Origin: an uncultured Gammaproteobacteria bacterium
GTDB taxonomy: Bacteria > Pseudomonadota > Gammaproteobacteria > GCA-002705445 > GCA-002716945
Length of the DNA stretch: 53,711 bases
Assembly: GCA_902605525.1 (NCBI GenBank)
Contig: CACLCV010000004.1
Coordinates: forward strand, 1-53,711
Direction: 5' to 3'
Part shown: positions 25,648-32,871 of the stretch, piece by piece
Position numbering within the stretch: the stretch's first letter is position 1
Layout: every line of letters starts with the position of its first letter
Position numbers and translations under genes: made by a program
The notes under the pieces: model-generated
Seen by the model: the letters and a program-made list of their open reading frames with translations, nothing else
Database searches by the model: none
What the model was told of the DNA's origin: nothing

Positions 25648-26250
25648 ATGAAAATATTCTTAGCCACTAAAAATAAAGATAAAATAACTGAGTTTCAGGA
25701 AATACTTTACAATATGAATGTTGAATTAGTTACCTGCCATGACATTGACATTCCAGATGTTGAAGAGACAGGCTCTACATTTGTAGAAAATGCAATACTA
25801 AAAGCTAGAAGTGCTTCGAATTTTACCTCTCTACCTTCTATAGCTGATGATTCCGGTATAGAGGTTGATTTTTTAAATGGTCGTCCAGGGGTGTGGTCTG
25901 CAAGATATGCAGGTGAAGATGCGACTAATAAGGAGAATAATAATAAACTTTTAGAAGAACTGGATGGTGTTCCTGATATTAAAAGAGGGGCATGTTATAG
26001 ATGTGTCATAGTTTTCATGAGATTTTCAAATGATCCGTTTCCATTTATTGCACAAGATTCATGGAGAGGGAGAATTAATGATAAACATCAGGGTACTAAC
26101 GGCTTTGGATATGATCCTATTTTTTTCTTGCCTGATAGAAATATAACTTCGGCAGAACTAAGGCCAAGTGATAAACATGAAATAAGTCACCGAGGTAAGG
26201 CTCTTCTAAAATTTTCTAATTATTTTAAAAATTATGTTAAAAATTCTTAA
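25648..26250 (+). CDS. rdgB: Non-canonical purine NTP pyrophosphatase (dITP/XTP)
   Basis: ATKNKDK, EETGSTFVENA..KA, ADDSG, PGVWSARY, FGYDPIF, SHRGKA. Confidence 0.96.
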   Translation: MKIFLATKNKDKITEFQEILYNMNVELVTCHDIDIPDVEETGSTFVENAILKARSASNFTSLPSIADDSGIEVDFLNGRPGVWSARYAGEDATNKENNNKLLEELDGVPDIKRGACYRCVIVFMRFSNDPFPFIAQDSWRGRINDKHQGTNGFGYDPIFFLPDRNITSAELRPSDKHEISHRGKALLKFSNYFKNYVKNS

Positions 26251-27718
26251 ATCAAAATTATATTTTTTACTGATACTAACTTTCATTGCCTCATGTGCAA
26301 AAAATCCTGTTTCAGGTATGCCAGATTTTGTAACTATTACTGAACAGCAAGAAGTAGAAATGGGAAGAGCTTATCATAAAGAGATACTTAAAAATTCTAA
26401 AGTGCTAGATAATAAGGAGCTTACTAAATATTATGTTGAACTAGGAGAAAAAATTGCAAAATCTAGTCATCGTCCTAATTTGAATTGGAAGTTCACTATA
26501 ATTGATGATCCAACTTTTAATGCTTTTGCTACTCCGGGCGGGTATGTTTATTTTTATAGAGGATTGCTTGCACATTTTAATTCGGAAGCTGAACTTGCTG
26601 GTGTGCTAAGTCATGAAATTGCCCATATCACTGCAAGGCATGCAGTAAGGGGTATGAGTACTGCACAAGTAACCAACTTACTTATAGGTCTTGCGGCATC
26701 AAGCGTCCCCGGAGGATCAATTTCGAATAGCGGATTTAATTTACTTAATCAAATTGTAAACAAGGGCTATAGTCGAAAATATGAATCTGAAGCAGATAAT
26801 ATAGCTAAGGAATATCTTGGTAGAAATGGATACAACCAAAACGCCATGGCAAATTTTCTGAAGACTATGAAGAGTGCAGACGATCTTGAAAATGAAATTG
26901 CAAAAAAGGAAGGTAGGCCGATTAGCGCTGGATATCATAATATTTTCTCAACTCATCCCTCTACTGAAAATAGAATTGAAGCGATGAATCAAACGGAAAG
27001 CATGGCTGGCAAAAAAAATAAAGATGCCTTTCTTAAAATGATTGATGGGCTTCCTTATGGCACAAGTGATGACGAGGGCTATATGAGATACAATACCTTC
27101 TATCATCCCTTTTTTGCTATAAAATTTAGTATTCCTAAGGGATGGGAATTAGAAAATCTTCCAGATAAATTAATTATTACAAATAAGGAATCAGAAATAG
27201 TTCTAATAGCAGATAATCTTTTAAGAGATGATATTGAAAATGGTTTTTCTCCTAAAGACTACCTAGATCAGAACATTGATAAAACATCATTCTTATCTAC
27301 TAATGAACTGATTGAACAAAAACCTCTTAATAAAAATAAAATATCTGGCTATACTTATCTATATAAAACTTCATCTATAGTTGATATTACTTATACTAGA
27401 TACTCTGTCTTTTTTGATATTCATCAAGAAGATAAAAAACCTAAAGCATGGATATTTATAAAAAAGTTTAAGGAGATTAACGATGATAATACTTCGAAAA
27501 TTATAGAAACATCATTTCAAAAGATGACTGAAGAAGAAGTAAGTAAATCTCAGGGCTTAAGAATCAAGGTGGTAAGATTCAGGGAAGGAATGTCATATAA
27601 AGAATTAGCTGATAACAGTCCGCTTGGAAGATATGCTGAGGGTAGACTTAGATTATTGAATGGACATTATCCAGAGGGTACACCAGAGGTGGGTACTTTA
27701 ATCAAAATAGTGGAGTAA
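26234..27718 (+). CDS. M48 family Zn metalloprotease lipoprotein with C-terminal LysM-like domain
   Basis: Lipobox IASC, NAFATPGG, HEIAH, YSRKYESEAD, STHP; C-terminal LRLLNG...GTLIKIV. Confidence 0.82.
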   Translation: MLKILKSKLYFLLILTFIASCAKNPVSGMPDFVTITEQQEVEMGRAYHKEILKNSKVLDNKELTKYYVELGEKIAKSSHRPNLNWKFTIIDDPTFNAFATPGGYVYFYRGLLAHFNSEAELAGVLSHEIAHITARHAVRGMSTAQVTNLLIGLAASSVPGGSISNSGFNLLNQIVNKGYSRKYESEADNIAKEYLGRNGYNQNAMANFLKTMKSADDLENEIAKKEGRPISAGYHNIFSTHPSTENRIEAMNQTESMAGKKNKDAFLKMIDGLPYGTSDDEGYMRYNTFYHPFFAIKFSIPKGWELENLPDKLIITNKESEIVLIADNLLRDDIENGFSPKDYLDQNIDKTSFLSTNELIEQKPLNKNKISGYTYLYKTSSIVDITYTRYSVFFDIHQEDKKPKAWIFIKKFKEINDDNTSKIIETSFQKMTEEEVSKSQGLRIKVVRFREGMSYKELADNSPLGRYAEGRLRLLNGHYPEGTPEVGTLIKIVE

Positions 27719-27720
27719 AT

Positions 27721-28977
27721 ATGAAAGGAAATATATTTTATGCGCAGTCTGGAGGCGTAACACCTGTGATTAATGCTACTGCTGCTGGAGTTATTGATGC
27801 ATACAATAAAAATAAAAAAAGTTTTGGAAAATTATATGTAGGAAAAAATGGAATACTTGGAGCTTTAAATGAAGAATTGATAGATATATCTAAAGAGGAT
27901 AAAACTCAATTAGCCCTTCTGAAACAAACACCTGGGGGAGCTTTTGGTTCTTGTAGACTTAAACTAAGTGATTTTAAAAAATCGAAAAAAGATTTCGAAC
28001 GCCTATATGAAGTATTTAAGAAACATAACATAAGATATTTTTTTTATAATGGGGGAGGTGATTCTCAAGATACAACTAATAAAGTCAGTAAATTTTTTAA
28101 AGAAAGAAATTACTCAATAGTTTGCATTGGTTTACCCAAGACGATTGATAATGATTTACCTGTAACAGATAACTGTCCAGGATTTGGCTCTGTAGCCAAA
28201 TACATAGCTACATCGACACTAGAAGCATCCTTAGATGTAAAGTCTATGTGTGAAACATCTACCAAAGTTTTTGTCTTAGAGGTTATGGGAAGACATGCAG
28301 GTTGGTTAGCTGCATCAGCAGGGGTTATTAAAGAAAAAGCAGGAGATGCTCCTCATCTTATTCTTTTTCCTGAAATTCAATTTAATCAAGGTTCTTTTTT
28401 AAAAAAAGTAAAAGAGACAACTATGAAATATGGATATTGTGTAGTCGTTGCATCTGAGGGAATAAAAGGTAGTAAAAATAAATTTCTCAGTGATAGTGGA
28501 TTAAAAGATAGTTTTGGGCACGCTCAACTAGGTGGTGTTGCGCCAGTACTGTCATCTATCATAACTAGTAAACTTAAATACAAAGTTCATTGGGCAGTTT
28601 CTGATTACTTACAGAGAGCTGCAAGACATGTTGCATCAGCGGTAGATGTAGAGCAAGCGTATGCTCTTGGGTTAGAATCAATAAAAGTTGCCAAGTTAGA
28701 GAATAACATTATGCTTACAATTAAAAGTACTACAATCAAACAAAAGTATAAATGGTCTATCAGCTCAACGAGTCTTGATAATGTTGCAAATGTAGAGAAA
28801 ATGTTACCTAAAAATTTTATTAAGTCTAATGGATTTGAAATTACTAGATCATGTAAAGAATACATTTCAAATCTTATTCAAGGCGAAGATTACCCGAGCT
28901 ACGATAATGGATTCCCCCAATATGCAAAACTCGAATGTAAAACTATTAAGAAGAAACTTCCGGCTTATAAATCATAA
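27721..28977 (+). CDS. pfp: 6-phosphofructokinase, probably pyrophosphate-dependent
   Basis: AQSGG, NGGGDS (Asp at the PPi-specificity position), PKTIDND (Lys), EVMGRHAGW, SEG, QRAARH. Confidence 0.88.
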   Translation: MKGNIFYAQSGGVTPVINATAAGVIDAYNKNKKSFGKLYVGKNGILGALNEELIDISKEDKTQLALLKQTPGGAFGSCRLKLSDFKKSKKDFERLYEVFKKHNIRYFFYNGGGDSQDTTNKVSKFFKERNYSIVCIGLPKTIDNDLPVTDNCPGFGSVAKYIATSTLEASLDVKSMCETSTKVFVLEVMGRHAGWLAASAGVIKEKAGDAPHLILFPEIQFNQGSFLKKVKETTMKYGYCVVVASEGIKGSKNKFLSDSGLKDSFGHAQLGGVAPVLSSIITSKLKYKVHWAVSDYLQRAARHVASAVDVEQAYALGLESIKVAKLENNIMLTIKSTTIKQKYKWSISSTSLDNVANVEKMLPKNFIKSNGFEITRSCKEYISNLIQGEDYPSYDNGFPQYAKLECKTIKKKLPAYKS

Positions 28978-29958
28978 TAGCTTGGTATCAGGGACAGTTT
29001 GTATATCCATTAAAGCTTTAATAAATTGTTCATCACTATTCAAACATGGGATAAAAGTAAATTCTTTTCCACCATGTTCAAAATAATCTTCCTTAGATTC
29101 TCTCCCAATTTCATCTATAGTTTCTAAACAATCTGACGAAAACCCAGGGCAAAATACATGTAAATTTGTTATACCTTCTTTTGGAAGTTCTTCTAGCCTA
29201 GATGACAAGTAAGGTTTTATCCATTCAGCTTTTCCAAATCTAGATTGAAAAGCAATCTCATACTCATTCTCAGTTAATTTCAATTCATTAGCAATCAGAT
29301 GTGCCGTATGTAGACATTCTTTTTGGTATGGCTCATCATCACCTATATATGATTCGGGAATACCATGAAAGGAAAACAAAAGTTTATCTGGTTTACTGAG
29401 TAACTTTTGTGATGATCTTATTTTGTCTGCACATGCTTTAATATACAAATTATTATCATGAAAACTGGATACAGCATTTATGCTGACCCCTAAAAAATAA
29501 TTTTTATCCTTTTTAATTAAGTGTCGGATAAGTTCAAAAATAGATAGGGTTGTTGTTGTTGAATATTGAGGAAACATAGGCAGAATCGTTATATCTTTGT
29601 ATCCTTTTTCAATCGATTCATAAAGAATTTTTTTAATGGATGGATTTCCATATCTCATTGCCGTATCGAAATATAATTCAGAGTCAAACTCTCTTGCCAT
29701 ATCTCTTAGGTGACCAGTTTGTGCATAAGTGTGGAAAAGTAATGGGGATCCCCATTCAGTCCAAACTTTGCGATAAAGTTCAGCGCTTTTTTTTGGTCTT
29801 GTCCTAAGTATGACTAGATTTAATAATGTTAACCAAAATAATCTAGGCAATCGTATAACATATTTATCAGATAGGAATTCTTTTAAATATGTTCTAACTT
29901 CTTTTTCATATGGCTGATCTGGAGTCCCCAGATTGACCAAAATAGTTACTTTAGACAC
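28972..29958 (-). CDS. hemH: Ferrochelatase
   Basis: LVNLGTPD, GSPL, AMRYGNP, PQYS.TT, FSFHGIP, FQSRFG..WIKPY, SDCLETIDEI. Confidence 0.97.
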   Translation of the reverse strand: MSKVTILVNLGTPDQPYEKEVRTYLKEFLSDKYVIRLPRLFWLTLLNLVILRTRPKKSAELYRKVWTEWGSPLLFHTYAQTGHLRDMAREFDSELYFDTAMRYGNPSIKKILYESIEKGYKDITILPMFPQYSTTTTLSIFELIRHLIKKDKNYFLGVSINAVSSFHDNNLYIKACADKIRSSQKLLSKPDKLLFSFHGIPESYIGDDEPYQKECLHTAHLIANELKLTENEYEIAFQSRFGKAEWIKPYLSSRLEELPKEGITNLHVFCPGFSSDCLETIDEIGRESKEDYFEHGGKEFTFIPCLNSDEQFIKALMDIQTVPDTKLL

Positions 29959-29961
29959 TTC

Positions 29962-30546
29962 TCATCCCTTTGTAAATCTTTTGCGAATTCTGCTTGTTTT
30001 AGGGACATGGGACAATAGGAAGTCCATTTGGTCTGCAAGAATTGTTCTTCCTCTTAGTATTAAATATTCAACCCTGGATGGTATAAATGGTACAGCTAGC
30101 AATGGCATACCTGCTTGTTCGGGTGTTCTGTCACCTTTTTTATTATTACAGACTTTGCAAGCAGTGACTAAATTTGTCCATTTATCCTCACCCCCTTTAG
30201 ACAGTGGGATTACATGATCTCTAGATAAGTTTTTAAGAGTAAAGGTTTCACCACAATACATGCATGTTTTGGCATCTCTATGGAAAAGGGTGAGATTTGT
30301 AAGGGGTGGAGTGTAATCTGAGTATGATACCTTGCTATAATTCTTAGTTGCAATTATAGAATTTACTTCAATTTTGCTTCTCAAGCCCGTTACTCGGTTA
30401 ATACCCCCTCTCACTAATAGGGAACTGTTGCCACATTCATAAGTTACCTGATCGTTATAATACAATCTCACAGCAGTCTGGTAGGTGATCCATCCTATTG
30501 GCAGCCCGGCATAATTTAGCCTGAGGATCTGTCTTGATATATCCAT
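29962..30546 (-). CDS. HNH endonuclease with N-terminal extension
   Basis: RDAKTCMYCG, SRDHVIPLSKGGEDKWTNLVTACKVCNNKK. Confidence 0.88.
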   Translation of the reverse strand: MDISRQILRLNYAGLPIGWITYQTAVRLYYNDQVTYECGNSSLLVRGGINRVTGLRSKIEVNSIIATKNYSKVSYSDYTPPLTNLTLFHRDAKTCMYCGETFTLKNLSRDHVIPLSKGGEDKWTNLVTACKVCNNKKGDRTPEQAGMPLLAVPFIPSRVEYLILRGRTILADQMDFLLSHVPKTSRIRKRFTKG

Positions 30547-30890
30547 ATATCCTATATATTACATGAAAATGTCGATTAAGAATCTTAAATTTAAATGAAA
30601 AAAGTTTATATTTAATGCACTATATTGGACATTTATTAACAGGACAAAGCTTTCAACGTTTCCTGTCGAATATCATATGTTTATGTCAATGAATATGAAA
30701 TAATATAATTCTTATTTGGATATATATATGATATATATGCATATTTTATTTCGACCATAAGTTGAACGATTTGAGAAAGGTTATGATGCAGTTAAGTTTC
30801 GACATTTTATATTAGATTTATTCACAGAATTATCCACAGAAGCTGTGGATAAACTATAATTGTTTTATAACAAAAGCCTCATAAAACATA
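30547..30890. other. AT-rich intergenic region with clustered DnaA boxes; candidate replication origin or DnaA-regulated locus
   Basis: TTATTCACA 30818-30826, TTATCCACA 30830-30838, TGTGGATAA 30844-30852, weak TTATTAACA 30633-30641; alternating AT tract at about 30720-30750. Confidence 0.55.
30818..30852. promoter_or_regulatory. Three DnaA boxes
   Basis: All three fit the consensus TTWTNCACA; the last two are exact TTATCCACA and form an inverted pair. Confidence 0.8.
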
Positions 30891-30906
30891 GTTTATAATA
30901 TTGGGT

Positions 30907-32871
30907 ATGCAAAAACTTATATCTGTGGCATTAGATGTGCCGATAAATCAACTGTTTGACTATATTGCTGAAAATCAAGACATTAAAATTGGTTGTAGGG
31001 TAAAGGTACCCTTTAGGAGCTCTACCAGAACAGGAATAATTGTAGAAACTAAAAAATTGAATACAGGCCAGACTGCCTACAAGATAAAAAATATACATAA
31101 AGTGCTTGATAAGAGTCGCGTTTTGTCGATTGAGATGATGGAGACGTGTAAATGGGCTGCAACATATTATCACTATCCTATAGGGCAAGTATTATTTAAT
31201 GCTCTAACTCCTATTCATAGAAAAGGTTCTCCATCACCTGATAGAAAACTAATCTTTAATGAGAACAGTTCAAAGTATCAATTGAAACTTAATGAAGAGC
31301 AGTCAAAAGTTGTTATAGATATTTACAAGAATATCAAACAACATCAAGTACACCTTTTAAGAGGAGTTACTGGATCAGGTAAAACAGAAGTCTATACTCA
31401 ATTAGCAATTGATTTGTTACAAAATGATGCACAAGTACTTATAATGGTACCTGAGATAAACCTAACCCCTCAAACAGTAAATAGATTTAAAAAATATCTT
31501 GATCTAGAGCCTTTAGAATATCATTCTAATCTAACACCACTCCAAAAATTTAAAGTTTGGAGAGCCTGTAAAGAGGAAGATAGGCTTATAATCATAGGAA
31601 CAAGATCGTCAGTTTTTTTACCATTTAAGAATTTAAAGCTATTGGTTATAGATGAGGAACATGATCAATCATATAAGCAGACAGAAAAATTTAAGTATAA
31701 TGCTAGAGATATTGGTATTGTTAGAGCTAAATCTTTTGACTGCCCCGTTGTACTAGGTACAGCTACACCCTCTTTTGAGACAATTCATAACGTCAGTATA
31801 AAAAAATATAAGCAACATTTACTAAAAAGTAGATATTTCAAGTCAATGTTACCGCTTGTGACAATAGTAGATACATCAATTGATAAACCAGATGAAGGTC
31901 TATCAAAAACTCTAAAAGATAAAATGAAGATAGAATTAAATAAGAATAACAAAGTAATCCTATTTATTGGGAGAAGAGGGTTCAGTAATACAGTTATCTG
32001 TAGTGAATGCAAGACAATTGTTAAGTGTCCAAAATGTGATTCCAATATAACATACCATAAAAATGTTGAGAGATTGATATGTCACCATTGTGGATTTAGT
32101 CAAAACTTTGACTCGGTAAAGCCTTGCTGTGAAAACCCTTGCTTGGTTCCTCTTGGTATAGGTACGCAAAGAATAGAAAATAAAGTCAAAAACTTGTTTC
32201 CAGATAAAAATACACTAAGAGTTGATAGTGATAATATTTCATCAAAGAGTGATCTCAAAGATTTCATTAAAAAAGCAAATAACAATGAAATTGATATATT
32301 TATAGGAACACAAATGATTGTTAAAGGACATGATTTTGAGGATGTATCATTAGTTGGAATTATTAATATTGATGCAGGGTTATATAGTACTGATTTTAGA
32401 GGCTTAGAAAAGACAGGTCAGCTGATAACTCAAGTATCAGGTAGAGCCGGTAGGCAAAAAGTTAGGGGAAACGTTATAATACAGACTAATAATCCTAAGC
32501 ATGAATTACTTCAAAAAATACTTAGAGAGGGATATGAGAAGTTCAGTAAGGTAGCGCTTAAACAACGCAAAACAGTTAATCTTCCGCCTTATAGTCACAT
32601 AGGAGTTGTTAAAGTTTCTTGCTCAATTAGACAACTTGCAAAAATGACGCTGGTAAACGCAGCAAAACTTAAAAAAAATAAATCTATATTTGTATATGGT
32701 CCTGCACCATCACAAACATCAAAAAAAAATAATCAATACTTTTATCAGATAATCATAGGGTCAGAAAGCTCGAGTCTTTTATCAAAACATATAACAATAA
32801 TTAAGTTATACTTATCCAGCATAGATAAAAGAATAAAATGGTACATTGATATTGATCCTATAGAACAATGA
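30907..32871 (+). CDS. priA: Primosomal protein N' (replication restart helicase), short form
   Basis: VALDVP..LFDY, GVTGSGKTE, PEINLTPQ, DEEHD.SYKQ, two CxxC Zn pairs, KGHDF, QVSGRAGR, IDIDP. ATG 30907 preferred over TTG 30901. Confidence 0.94.
   Translation: MQKLISVALDVPINQLFDYIAENQDIKIGCRVKVPFRSSTRTGIIVETKKLNTGQTAYKIKNIHKVLDKSRVLSIEMMETCKWAATYYHYPIGQVLFNALTPIHRKGSPSPDRKLIFNENSSKYQLKLNEEQSKVVIDIYKNIKQHQVHLLRGVTGSGKTEVYTQLAIDLLQNDAQVLIMVPEINLTPQTVNRFKKYLDLEPLEYHSNLTPLQKFKVWRACKEEDRLIIIGTRSSVFLPFKNLKLLVIDEEHDQSYKQTEKFKYNARDIGIVRAKSFDCPVVLGTATPSFETIHNVSIKKYKQHLLKSRYFKSMLPLVTIVDTSIDKPDEGLSKTLKDKMKIELNKNNKVILFIGRRGFSNTVICSECKTIVKCPKCDSNITYHKNVERLICHHCGFSQNFDSVKPCCENPCLVPLGIGTQRIENKVKNLFPDKNTLRVDSDNISSKSDLKDFIKKANNNEIDIFIGTQMIVKGHDFEDVSLVGIINIDAGLYSTDFRGLEKTGQLITQVSGRAGRQKVRGNVIIQTNNPKHELLQKILREGYEKFSKVALKQRKTVNLPPYSHIGVVKVSCSIRQLAKMTLVNAAKLKKNKSIFVYGPAPSQTSKKNNQYFYQIIIGSESSSLLSKHITIIKLYLSSIDKRIKWYIDIDPIEQ

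What the first reader, a model, noticed from the sequence alone, without database searches (positions are those of the whole stretch)
30547..30900. Candidate replication origin away from dnaA/gidA, upstream of priA
Seen: the largest intergenic region in the window (about 360 bp), with three consensus DnaA boxes within 35 bp (same-direction pair 3 nt apart, then an inverted box 5 nt away), one weak box, and an alternating AT tract resembling an unwinding element. No GATC cluster is evident. Established: gammaproteobacterial oriC normally lies by dnaA or gidA/mnmG, and neither is here. Inference: a relocated minimal oriC, a DnaA titration/reactivation site (datA/DARS-like), or DnaA control of the restart helicase, since the boxes lie about 40-75 nt upstream of the priA -10. 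Against oriC: across the window, genes converge toward the middle more than they diverge.
Basis: partly seen in the sequence, partly recalled or inferred. Interest (0 to 1): 0.7.

Follow-up and report, generated by a model that had tools for sequence, protein, structure and literature searches.

The report
DARS-like DnaA site upstream of priA
The DnaA-box cluster in front of priA is real, but it is not a replication origin; its three boxes are laid out like the E. coli DARS sites that recharge the replication initiator DnaA, inside a conserved 220-bp non-coding module in a roughly 1-Mb marine gammaproteobacterium.

Summary
At 30818-30852 lies TTATTCACA-gaa-TTATCCACA-gaagc-TGTGGATAA, the only DnaA-box cluster in the 753-kb assembly.

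It is not oriC. The window is collinear with two near-complete relatives. In both, gene orientation, third-codon-position skew and a dif-like site place the origin within about 40 kb of dnaA. The element lies 123-127 kb from dnaA, at one of the least likely origin positions.

The box-3 nt-box-5 nt-inverted-box geometry is exactly that of the E. coli DARS1 and DARS2 cores, and differs from datA.

- One copy per genome sits upstream of priA in 27 of 37 family genomes. The boxes are conserved while the spacers vary.
- The core occurs in 191 of 401 sampled genomes of the class, with no hits to the reversed control.
- Conserved blocks lie at fixed offsets on the box III side: Fis-like at -65, IHF-like at -97 and a distal box at -185. 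The distance to the priA promoter varies.
- IHF and Fis are encoded in this assembly and Hda in two relatives. The DnaA residues needed for DARS activity are kept except L290, which is M.

Best reading (0.6): a DARS-type DnaA-ADP reactivation module, possibly also modulating priA. The activity itself is untested.

The parts
30818..30826 (+). DnaA box III equivalent, TTATTCACA (one mismatch to the strict consensus)
   Evidence: It varies among relatives (TTATACACA, TTTTCCACA, TTATCCACA) but always stays a TTWTNCACA-type box.
30830..30838 (+). DnaA box II equivalent, perfect TTATCCACA, 3 nt after box III
   Evidence: Same spacing as E. coli DARS1 and DARS2.
30844..30852 (-). DnaA box I equivalent, perfect TTATCCACA on the minus strand, 5 nt from box II and in opposite orientation to it (head-to-head in the E. 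coli papers)
   Evidence: The 5-bp spacing between boxes I and II is stated for DARS in PMC6868365.
30753..30767 (.). Fis-like 15-mer GACCATAAGTTGAAC (family consensus GAYYATAARTTGWAC), at fixed offset -65..-51 from box III
   Evidence: Ungapped anchored alignment of 12-18 family sequences. A similar G..A/T..C block lies at the same offset in other families. Assignment to Fis is inferred from the consensus only.
30721..30733 (-). IHF-like site position (family consensus YAANNNNTTGATW at -97..-85). In the window it reads TATATATATGATA, with 2 mismatches, and lies inside the alternating AT tract.
   Evidence: It matches the consensus perfectly in G019, G014 and G023 and has 1 mismatch in most other relatives. 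E. coli DARS2 IBS1-2 lie at -87..-59 on the same side.
30668..30684 (.). Conserved block C (A..AA.CAT...TTT at -150..-134). It contains TATCATATGTTTA, one mismatch from the IHF consensus WATCARNNNNTTR.
   Evidence: Its function is not assigned.
30633..30641 (+). Distal weak DnaA box TTATTAACA, in the same orientation as boxes III and II, at -185 (at -173 to -176 in the other genera, where it can be TTATTCACA)
   Evidence: The same variant, inverted, recurs beside a perfect box in the dnaA-dnaN spacer.
30894..30899 (+). Likely priA -10 (TATAAT; TGTATAAT extended -10 in the other genera), 7 nt before the ATG, implying a near-leaderless priA mRNA
   Evidence: Family alignment. Its distance from box I varies from 29 to 47 nt among genera.
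30907..32871 (+). priA (replication restart helicase), downstream of box I
   Evidence: NCBIfam TIGR00595, 540.7 bits. The ATG at 30907 is conserved in relatives.
29962..30546 (-). Divergent upstream neighbour, a 194-aa HNH endonuclease-domain protein
   Evidence: Pfam HNH_5 6e-20. It is conserved at this position in G004 and G013.

Best explanation
The 220-bp stretch 30633-30852 is a DARS-type control site for the initiator DnaA, not an origin. What the sequence shows: three DnaA boxes in the exact DARS core layout (box III, 3 nt, box II, 5 nt, inverted box I). They are flanked on the box III side, at fixed distances, by a Fis-like site, an IHF-like site and a distal weak DnaA box. The mechanism is inferred by analogy with E. 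coli DARS1 and DARS2. ADP-DnaA, produced after initiation by Hda-dependent hydrolysis, binds box II and recruits further protomers to boxes I and III. The head-to-head pair on boxes I and II loosens the nucleotide pocket and ADP is released. Apo-DnaA then leaves, binds ATP and is competent for the next initiation at an origin about 125 kb away near dnaA. An IHF-induced bend at about -91, roughly midway between the core and the distal box, would fold the distal box onto the core. Fis would add growth-phase input. Divergent transcription of priA and the HNH gene would keep the spacer negatively supercoiled, which favours IHF binding at DARS2 in E. coli. A secondary effect of DnaA occupancy on priA transcription is possible.
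For: - **Geometry.** The same scanner (box-3-box-5-inverted box) recovers DARS1 and DARS2 in E. coli loci, finds nothing in datA, and finds exactly one site in the whole G000 assembly (sequences). The equal spacing at DARS1 and DARS2, with box I opposed, is stated in PMC5742627 and PMC6868365.
- **Selection on boxes and spacing.** There is one copy per genome upstream of priA in 27 of 37 family genomes. The boxes are kept while the 3- and 5-nt spacers vary, and the reversed control gives no hits.
- **Spread across the class.** The core is in 191 of 401 class genomes with no control hits. Both priA-linked and unlinked copies carry IHF-consensus and G..A/T..C blocks at the same offsets.
- **Fixed upstream offsets.** Across six genera the upstream blocks stay at fixed offsets, while the distance to the priA -10 varies from 29 to 47 nt.
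- **Partner proteins.** IhfA, IhfB and Fis (next to purH) are in G000, and Hda is in G004 and G013. DnaA keeps Q208, D269, F239 and K243.
- **Position.** The site lies 123-127 kb from dnaA in five family genomes, as DARS positions relative to oriC are conserved in E. coli (PMC5010248 abstract).
Against: - No biochemical or genetic test of DARS activity exists outside E. coli, and sequence cannot show ADP release.
- In the window itself the IHF-like site has 2 mismatches to the consensus.
- The order is core, Fis-like, IHF-like. In E. coli DARS2 the order is core, IHF, Fis (PMC11724364 abstract).
- DnaA L290, needed at DARS2, is M here.
- Hda was not found in the 73%-complete G000 assembly.
- The constant link to priA, always with the same polarity, hints at some promoter-related role.
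- High-affinity boxes would also titrate DnaA whatever else they do.
Confidence: 0.6

Rival explanations
1. The boxes are a DnaA-dependent operator for priA. DnaA bound to them represses or activates the restart-helicase promoter and so ties PriA supply to initiator status. They have no role in nucleotide exchange.
For: The core always lies upstream of priA with the same polarity, box I nearest the gene. This holds in the family and in 10 of 30 loci from other families. In G000 a consensus scan finds TCCACA-16-TATAAT overlapping boxes II and I. E. coli DARS1 also lies in a repair-gene promoter region, upstream of uvrB.
Against: The promoter that overlaps the boxes is not conserved even within the genus. 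The conserved -10 lies 29-47 nt from box I in the family and about 90-150 nt from it in other families, so there is no fixed operator-promoter geometry. In contrast, the upstream IHF-like and Fis-like blocks sit at fixed offsets. Nineteen or twenty of the 30 class loci carry the same module with no priA beside it. A simple operator would not need the exact 3- and 5-nt tri-box geometry.
Confidence: 0.17
2. The module is a DnaA sink or a datA-like site. It titrates DnaA or, with IHF, promotes hydrolysis of DnaA-ATP, so it acts negatively on initiation.
For: It combines high-affinity boxes with an IHF-like site between the core and a distal box, which loosely resembles datA. It is the only strong DnaA-binding cluster in about 1 Mb.
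Against: The E. coli datA boxes have a different arrangement, and the DARS-geometry scan finds nothing in datA. The head-to-head 5-bp pair plus a 3-bp tandem box is the defining DARS layout. Three or four boxes are a small sink.
Confidence: 0.15
3. The element is a relocated minimal oriC. Replication starts here, away from dnaA and mnmG.
For: It is the only DnaA-box cluster in G000, G013:C1 and G004:C2, 2.47 Mb in all. No canonical multi-box origin lies next to dnaA: the rpmH-dnaA spacer is about 80 bp with no boxes and the dnaA-dnaN spacer is 150 bp with 1-2 boxes. An AT-rich tract lies nearby.
Against: - All 46 window ORFs are collinear with G004:C2 and G013:C1.
- In those contigs the element site is among the worst origin positions. 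The log-likelihood differences from the best position are -25 and -23 for gene orientation, -9.3 and -48.8 for T/A skew at codon position 3, and -9.1 for G/C skew at codon position 3 (G013 only). The best positions lie within about 40 kb of dnaA.
- A conserved dif-like site sits at the orientation switch at about 600 kb, roughly opposite dnaA on a chromosome of about 1.1 Mb.
- Genes converge on the element.
- There is no GATC and no repeated 13-mers.
- The same module occurs at 4-45% of chromosome length from dnaA, often twice, in single-contig genomes.
Confidence: 0.03

Closest known systems
E. coli DARS2 (DnaA-reactivating sequence 2, rppH/ygdT-mutH intergenic region, 455 bp)
   Same: The three-box core has box I opposed to boxes II and III, with 5-bp and 3-bp spacers. 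The regulatory flank lies on the box III side. IHF-type sites there sit at a similar distance and in the same orientation: E. coli IBS1-2 at -87..-59 and the family site at -97..-85. A Fis-type site is also present. The host encodes IHF, Fis and, in relatives, Hda.
   Different: The neighbour is priA, not mutH. The Fis-like block lies between the core and the IHF-like site, not beyond IHF. There is a single distal weak box about symmetric to the core around the IHF-like site. The module is about 220 bp, not 455 bp. The boxes are closer to consensus: 1 mismatch in total against 5 in DARS2. Activity is untested.
E. coli DARS1 (bioD-uvrB intergenic region, 101 bp)
   Same: The core geometry is identical and box II is a perfect consensus. 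It lies in the upstream region of a DNA repair or replication gene. Like DARS1, it might act without accessory proteins.
   Different: Polarity relative to the downstream gene is reversed: in E. coli box III faces uvrB about 385 bp away, whereas here box I faces priA 54 bp away. DARS1 has no required IHF or Fis sites, but here conserved IHF-like and Fis-like blocks are present.
E. coli datA (DnaA-ATP hydrolysis locus)
   Same: It is a non-coding DnaA-box cluster with an IHF site, located away from oriC, that modulates initiator activity.
   Different: The box arrangement differs: widely spaced boxes plus a 3-nt head-to-head pair. The DARS-geometry scan finds no match in datA. The functional sign would be opposite.
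Gammaproteobacterial oriC (mnmG-mioC or rpmH-dnaA type)
   Same: It has consensus DnaA boxes, an IHF-like site and an AT-rich tract in an intergenic region.
   Different: It lies at the wrong chromosomal position by orientation, skew and dif. It has only 3+1 boxes, no 13-mer unwinding repeats and no GATC. The same module can occur twice per chromosome in other genomes.

Membership tests
DARS (DnaA-reactivating sequence) core | [quoted passage not shown] | tested here: met
   Boxes at 30818 (+), 30830 (+) and 30844 (-). The definition is in PMC5742627.
DARS (DnaA-reactivating sequence) core | Spacing identical to DARS1 and DARS2: 5 bp between boxes I and II, 3 bp between boxes II and III | tested here: met
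   The same scanner finds DARS1, DARS2 and this site, and only this site in G000. The 5-bp spacing is stated in PMC6868365.
DARS (DnaA-reactivating sequence) core | Non-coding chromosomal site away from oriC, at a conserved distance from it | tested here: met
   It lies in a 360-bp intergenic gap, 123-127 kb from dnaA in five family genomes. The origin maps near dnaA.
DARS (DnaA-reactivating sequence) core | Promotes ADP release from ADP-DnaA and regenerates ATP-DnaA | not testable with these tools
   This needs a nucleotide-exchange assay or in vivo initiation phenotypes.
DARS (DnaA-reactivating sequence) core | The host DnaA keeps the residues required for DARS activity (Q208, D269, L290) and the host has a DnaA-ATP hydrolysis system (Hda) | tested here: inconclusive
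   Q208, D269, F239 and K243 are kept, and L290 is M. Hda is present in G004 and G013 but was not found in the 73%-complete G000 assembly.
DARS2-type regulated module | IHF and Fis binding sites at optimised distances on the box III side, in the order core, IHF, Fis | tested here: inconclusive
   An IHF-consensus block lies at -97..-85 and a Fis-like block at -65..-51, at fixed offsets across six genera. The order is core, Fis-like, IHF-like, and the window's IHF-like site has 2 mismatches. Protein binding was not tested.
DARS1 / DARS2 orthologous loci | Located beside uvrB (DARS1) or mutH (DARS2), as in E. coli and reportedly Vibrio cholerae (PMC6090056) | tested here: not met
   The neighbours are an HNH gene and priA. 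No uvrB, mutH or rppH lies beside any of 30 class loci.
oriC | Lies at the switch of gene orientation and strand composition, opposite dif | tested here: not met
   The origin lies within about 40 kb of dnaA, and the element site is among the least likely positions in two collinear relatives.
oriC | Unwinding element with AT-rich repeats next to an array of DnaA boxes; GATC clustering in Dam-positive gammaproteobacteria | tested here: not met
   No repeated 13-mers were seen. The AT tract coincides with the conserved IHF-like position. No GATC occurs in the gap.
datA | datA-type arrangement of DnaA boxes around an IHF site | tested here: not met
   The boxes of E. coli datA (L169) are spaced differently, and no DARS-geometry match occurs in datA.
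DnaA-regulated promoter | Boxes at a fixed position relative to the -35/-10 elements of the regulated gene | tested here: not met
   The distance from the core to the conserved -10 is 29-47 nt within the family, and the core lies about 90-150 nt from the priA start in other families. The box-overlapping promoter is not conserved.

The most novel reading that the evidence does not exclude
The priA-linked module is the ancestral, widely retained form of the DARS device in Gammaproteobacteria in the broad sense. It is present in about half of the sampled genomes and is priA-linked in about a third of the sampled loci. It survives as the single DnaA-recharging site even in about 1-Mb streamlined ocean bacteria, whose origin has itself lost any recognisable multi-box array. 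If so, DNA-catalysed recycling of DnaA-ADP is a core, ancient part of replication control and not a speciality of E. coli. The E. coli uvrB and mutH sites would then be derived relocations.
Probability: 0.4. Interest if true: 0.7.

Novelty: new variant of a known kind. Interest (0 to 1): 0.55.

Why it matters
As far as the papers I could read show, DARS-mediated reactivation of DnaA has been demonstrated only in E. coli. Sequence candidates have been reported only for close relatives, at the uvrB and mutH loci. An element with the exact DARS core geometry is kept at a constant place beside priA in genomes under strong reduction. It also carries its own fixed IHF-like and Fis-like architecture. 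This suggests that the DnaA nucleotide cycle is controlled by chromosomal DNA sites far more widely than shown so far. It offers a compact 220-bp natural variant for testing which features of DARS are essential. For genome annotation, it warns that the strongest DnaA-box cluster of a small genome need not be its origin. In this family the real origin near dnaA has no conspicuous box array at all.

Tried and rejected
I replaced it with a per-gene likelihood that separates gene orientation from replichore, using all third positions and gene orientation.
- GC3 in G004 was uninformative.
- I looked for a canonical oriC beside dnaA and mnmG and anywhere in 2.47 Mb, with strict and relaxed box definitions. 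None was found.
- The sigma-70 match overlapping boxes II and I was rejected as the conserved priA promoter, because it is absent in genus relatives.
- Rfam gave no RNA family in 30300-31100.
- Fujimitsu et al. 2009, the original DARS paper with candidate lists, is not held under the PMC id I recalled from memory. I therefore could not check whether priA-linked candidates were listed there.
- A loosely specified literature search returned only irrelevant papers. Searches for 'DARS-like' and for DARS plus priA found no description of priA-linked elements.
- I did not attempt coverage peak-to-trough analysis. The expected depth difference between dnaA and priA is only a few percent, which is below what 20-kb read layouts can resolve.
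- Earlier scan notes supplied the lead of Fis and IHF sites at fixed offsets. I re-derived this from my own alignments and did not rely on the notes.

Full report
**Observation.** The window is contig C4 of a 753-kb, 30-contig, 73%-complete assembly with 31% GC. The only close named relatives are an uncultured marine gammaproteobacterial single-cell genome and a Mediterranean MAG. Between a 194-aa HNH-domain ORF (29962-30546, minus strand) and priA (ATG at 30907) lies a 360-bp gap. At 30818-30852 it reads TTATTCACA-gaa-TTATCCACA-gaagc-TGTGGATAA. A weak box, TTATTAACA, sits at 30633-30641. An alternating AT tract lies at about 30716-30745. No GATC occurs between 30530 and 31372. The assembly holds 19 perfect boxes, and this is the only place where two lie within 300 bp. 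It is also the only cluster of three or more TTWTNCACA boxes within 400 bp.

**Is it an origin? The dnaA region.** dnaA lies on another contig, in the classical array mnmG-mnmE-yidC-yidD-rnpA-rpmH / dnaA-dnaN-recF-gyrB. Gene names other than dnaA and mnmG are assigned from ORF order and size, not from family searches. The rpmH-dnaA spacer is only about 80 bp and has no boxes. The dnaA-dnaN spacer is 150 bp and has one or two conserved boxes and an AT-rich end. So there is no canonical origin next to dnaA.

**Is it an origin? Chromosome-scale test.**
- Two family members have near-chromosome contigs: G004:C2 (937 kb, same genus) and G013:C1 (781 kb, another genus).
- All 46 long ORFs of the window map to them in unbroken order, so their chromosome geometry applies to the window.
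- In both contigs gene orientation flips from mostly plus to mostly minus at about 600 kb.
- Exactly there, both carry the same dif-like sequence, TGTTCGTATAATATATATTATGT.
- Four-fold-site GC skew was too noisy. I therefore fitted each gene's third-position composition with separate terms for gene orientation and replichore, and scanned the origin position.
- The best positions were 70 kb (GC3) and 30-40 kb (TA3) in G013, where dnaA is at 53-54 kb. In G004 the best position was 60 kb (TA3), where dnaA is at 79-80 kb.
- Gene orientation alone gives 80 or 120 kb in G004, and 90 kb (50 kb nearly as good) in G013.
- The element, at 181 kb in G013 and 203 kb in G004, is among the worst positions. 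The log-likelihood differences from the best position are -9 to -49.
- With a chromosome of about 1.1 Mb, the point opposite dif falls at about 50-55 kb.
- In eight single-contig genomes from other families, the same three-box core lies at 4-45% of chromosome length from dnaA, often in two copies.

I reject the oriC reading (probability about 0.03).

**What it is.** The E. coli DARS1 core reads TTATCCACT-attcc-TGTGGATAA-cca-TGTGTATTA. The DARS2 core reads TTATTCACC-ttttc-TGTGGATAG-agt-TGTGAAGAA. Read on the other strand, both are box III, 3 nt, box II, 5 nt, inverted box I, which is exactly the arrangement here. The reviews and papers I read define the DARS core by these features: three boxes, equal spacing at both loci, and box I opposed with a 5-bp gap (PMC5742627, PMC6868365). 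A scanner for this geometry (up to 3 mismatches per box) recovers DARS1 and DARS2. It finds nothing in the E. coli datA region and finds exactly one site in the whole assembly.

**Conservation.**
- In the family, 27 of 37 genomes have exactly one copy of the pattern and none has a reversed-control hit. Wherever priA was also located, in all 20 genomes checked, the copy lies upstream of priA.
- PriA identity across these genomes falls to 47%. The 3- and 5-nt spacers differ (gaa, gat, att, gag; gaagc, gattc, aaatc and others), yet the boxes and spacing persist. This is the signature of selection on DnaA binding geometry.
- In a sample of 401 genomes across the class, 191 carry the core, usually once or twice, again with no control hits.
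- Of 30 fetched loci from different families, 10 have priA immediately downstream of box I, always with the same polarity. None is next to uvrB, mutH or rppH.

**The module around the core.** I anchored family sequences on the core without gaps and found blocks at fixed offsets across six genera.

| Block | Offset from box III | Window coordinates | Notes |
|---|---|---|---|
| Fis-like GAYYATAARTTGWAC | -65..-51 | 30753-30767 | Fits the Fis consensus as I recall it; the assignment is inferred |
| IHF-like YAANNNNTTGATW | -97..-85 | 30721-30733 | Perfect in three genomes, one mismatch in most, two in the window (TATATATATGATA) |
| Block C, unassigned | -150..-134 | 30668-30684 | Contains a one-mismatch IHF-consensus match |
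| Distal DnaA box | -185 in this genus, -173 to -176 in the others | 30633-30641 | The offset differs by about one helical turn between genera |

- The same IHF-consensus and G..A/T..C blocks occur at the same offsets in priA-linked and unlinked copies of other families, so the module is an autonomous unit.
- In E. coli DARS2, anchored the same way, IBS1-2 lie at -87..-59 on the same side.
- By contrast, the distance from box I to the conserved priA -10 varies from 29 to 47 nt in the family. This -10 is TATAAT at 30894-30899 (TGTATAAT in the other genera), 7 nt before the ATG.
- The promoter-like match overlapping boxes II and I in G000 is not conserved.
- No Rfam family matches the region.

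**Host factors.** IhfA, IhfB and a small Fis homologue next to purH are encoded in G000. Hda is found in G004 and G013, but not in the incomplete G000 assembly. DnaA is 50% identical to E. coli DnaA. It keeps Q208, D269, F239 and K243, and L290 is M.

**Mechanism.** The sequence shows the geometry, the conservation, the fixed architecture, the position about 125 kb from dnaA and the presence of partner proteins. Everything else is inferred by analogy with E. coli. ADP-DnaA would assemble on boxes II, I and III, and the head-to-head pair would release ADP. Apo-DnaA would then rebind ATP. An IHF bend, roughly midway between the core and the distal box, would fold the distal box onto the core. 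Fis would add growth-phase input. I give this reading 0.6. The rivals are a pure priA operator (0.17), a titration or datA-like negative site (0.15) and oriC (0.03). A combined role, recharging plus some effect on priA, is compatible with the best reading.

**Comparison and novelty.**
- The element passes the sequence-level definition of a DARS core.
- It fails orthology with the DARS1 and DARS2 loci, which have different neighbours.
- It differs from DARS2 in the order of the Fis-like and IHF-like sites and in having a single distal box.
- The papers I could read report DARS candidates only in E. coli-proximal species and, for Vibrio cholerae, at the uvrB and mutH locations (PMC4245941, PMC5742627, PMC6090056). 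The original 2009 paper was not available to me.
- Earlier notes of this scan describe similar priA-linked modules in many other genomes. They agree with my reading, which I reached before seeing them, and they prompted the offset analysis that I re-derived here.
- I class the element as a new variant of a known kind. This instance is notable as a single-copy version in a genome of about 1 Mb whose own origin has no recognisable box array.

Noticed in passing
G000:C3 31966-33629 (L001 268-1931); also G004:C2 about 78.8-80.3 kb and G013:C1 about 52.6-54.3 kb: No canonical oriC lies beside dnaA in this family. The rpmH-dnaA spacer is about 80 bp with no boxes. The 150-bp dnaA-dnaN spacer holds a conserved pair of boxes (inverted TTATTAACAG, then TTATCCACA about 16 nt later) and an AT-rich end, AAAAATAACATATAATATATAT. 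This is the best candidate for a very small origin, but it could simply be dnaN promoter control. No other DnaA-box cluster exists in 2.47 Mb of three genomes.
   Followed up: partly
G013:C1 599462-599489 and G004:C2 604773-604800: A conserved dif-like site, TGTTCGTATAATATATATTATGT, has 8 mismatches to E. coli dif but is identical in both genomes over these 23 bases. It lies exactly at the gene-orientation switch and marks the terminus.
   Followed up: partly
window 1-20593 and 25648-28977 (equivalent to G004:C2 205-234 kb): Most genes in the left 30 kb of the window, on the side of the element away from dnaA, are transcribed against the inferred direction of fork movement. This produces the local convergence and the local inversion of GC skew at the element. 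It might be an old inversion.
   Followed up: no
G000:C3 26631-28509: mnmG appears split into two overlapping ORFs (26631-27464 and 27451-28509), and the rsmG-like ORF downstream is short. These are probably frameshifts or assembly errors in the MAG.
   Followed up: no
window 29962-30546 (-): A 194-aa HNH_5 endonuclease-domain protein gives weak hits to the HNH domains of Cas9 and IscB. It is conserved next to hemH in G004 (77% identity) and G013 (62%), so it is a resident gene and not a mobile insertion.
   Followed up: partly
window 27721-28977 (+) and 28972-29958 (-): A PPi-dependent phosphofructokinase (NF010675, 581 bits) converges on hemH, and their 3' ends overlap by a few bases.
   Followed up: no
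whole window: GATC is under-represented: 126 sites against 181 +/- 14 expected from dinucleotide-preserving shuffles.
   Followed up: no
window 30894-30909: The conserved priA -10 lies only 7 nt before the ATG (it is an extended -10, TGTATAAT, in the other genera). This suggests a leaderless or near-leaderless priA mRNA across the family.
   Followed up: partly
L033 (G030:C15), rows: One genome of another family carries two tandem three-box cores about 270 bp apart upstream of priA (boxes at 439/451/465 and 711/723/737).
   Followed up: no
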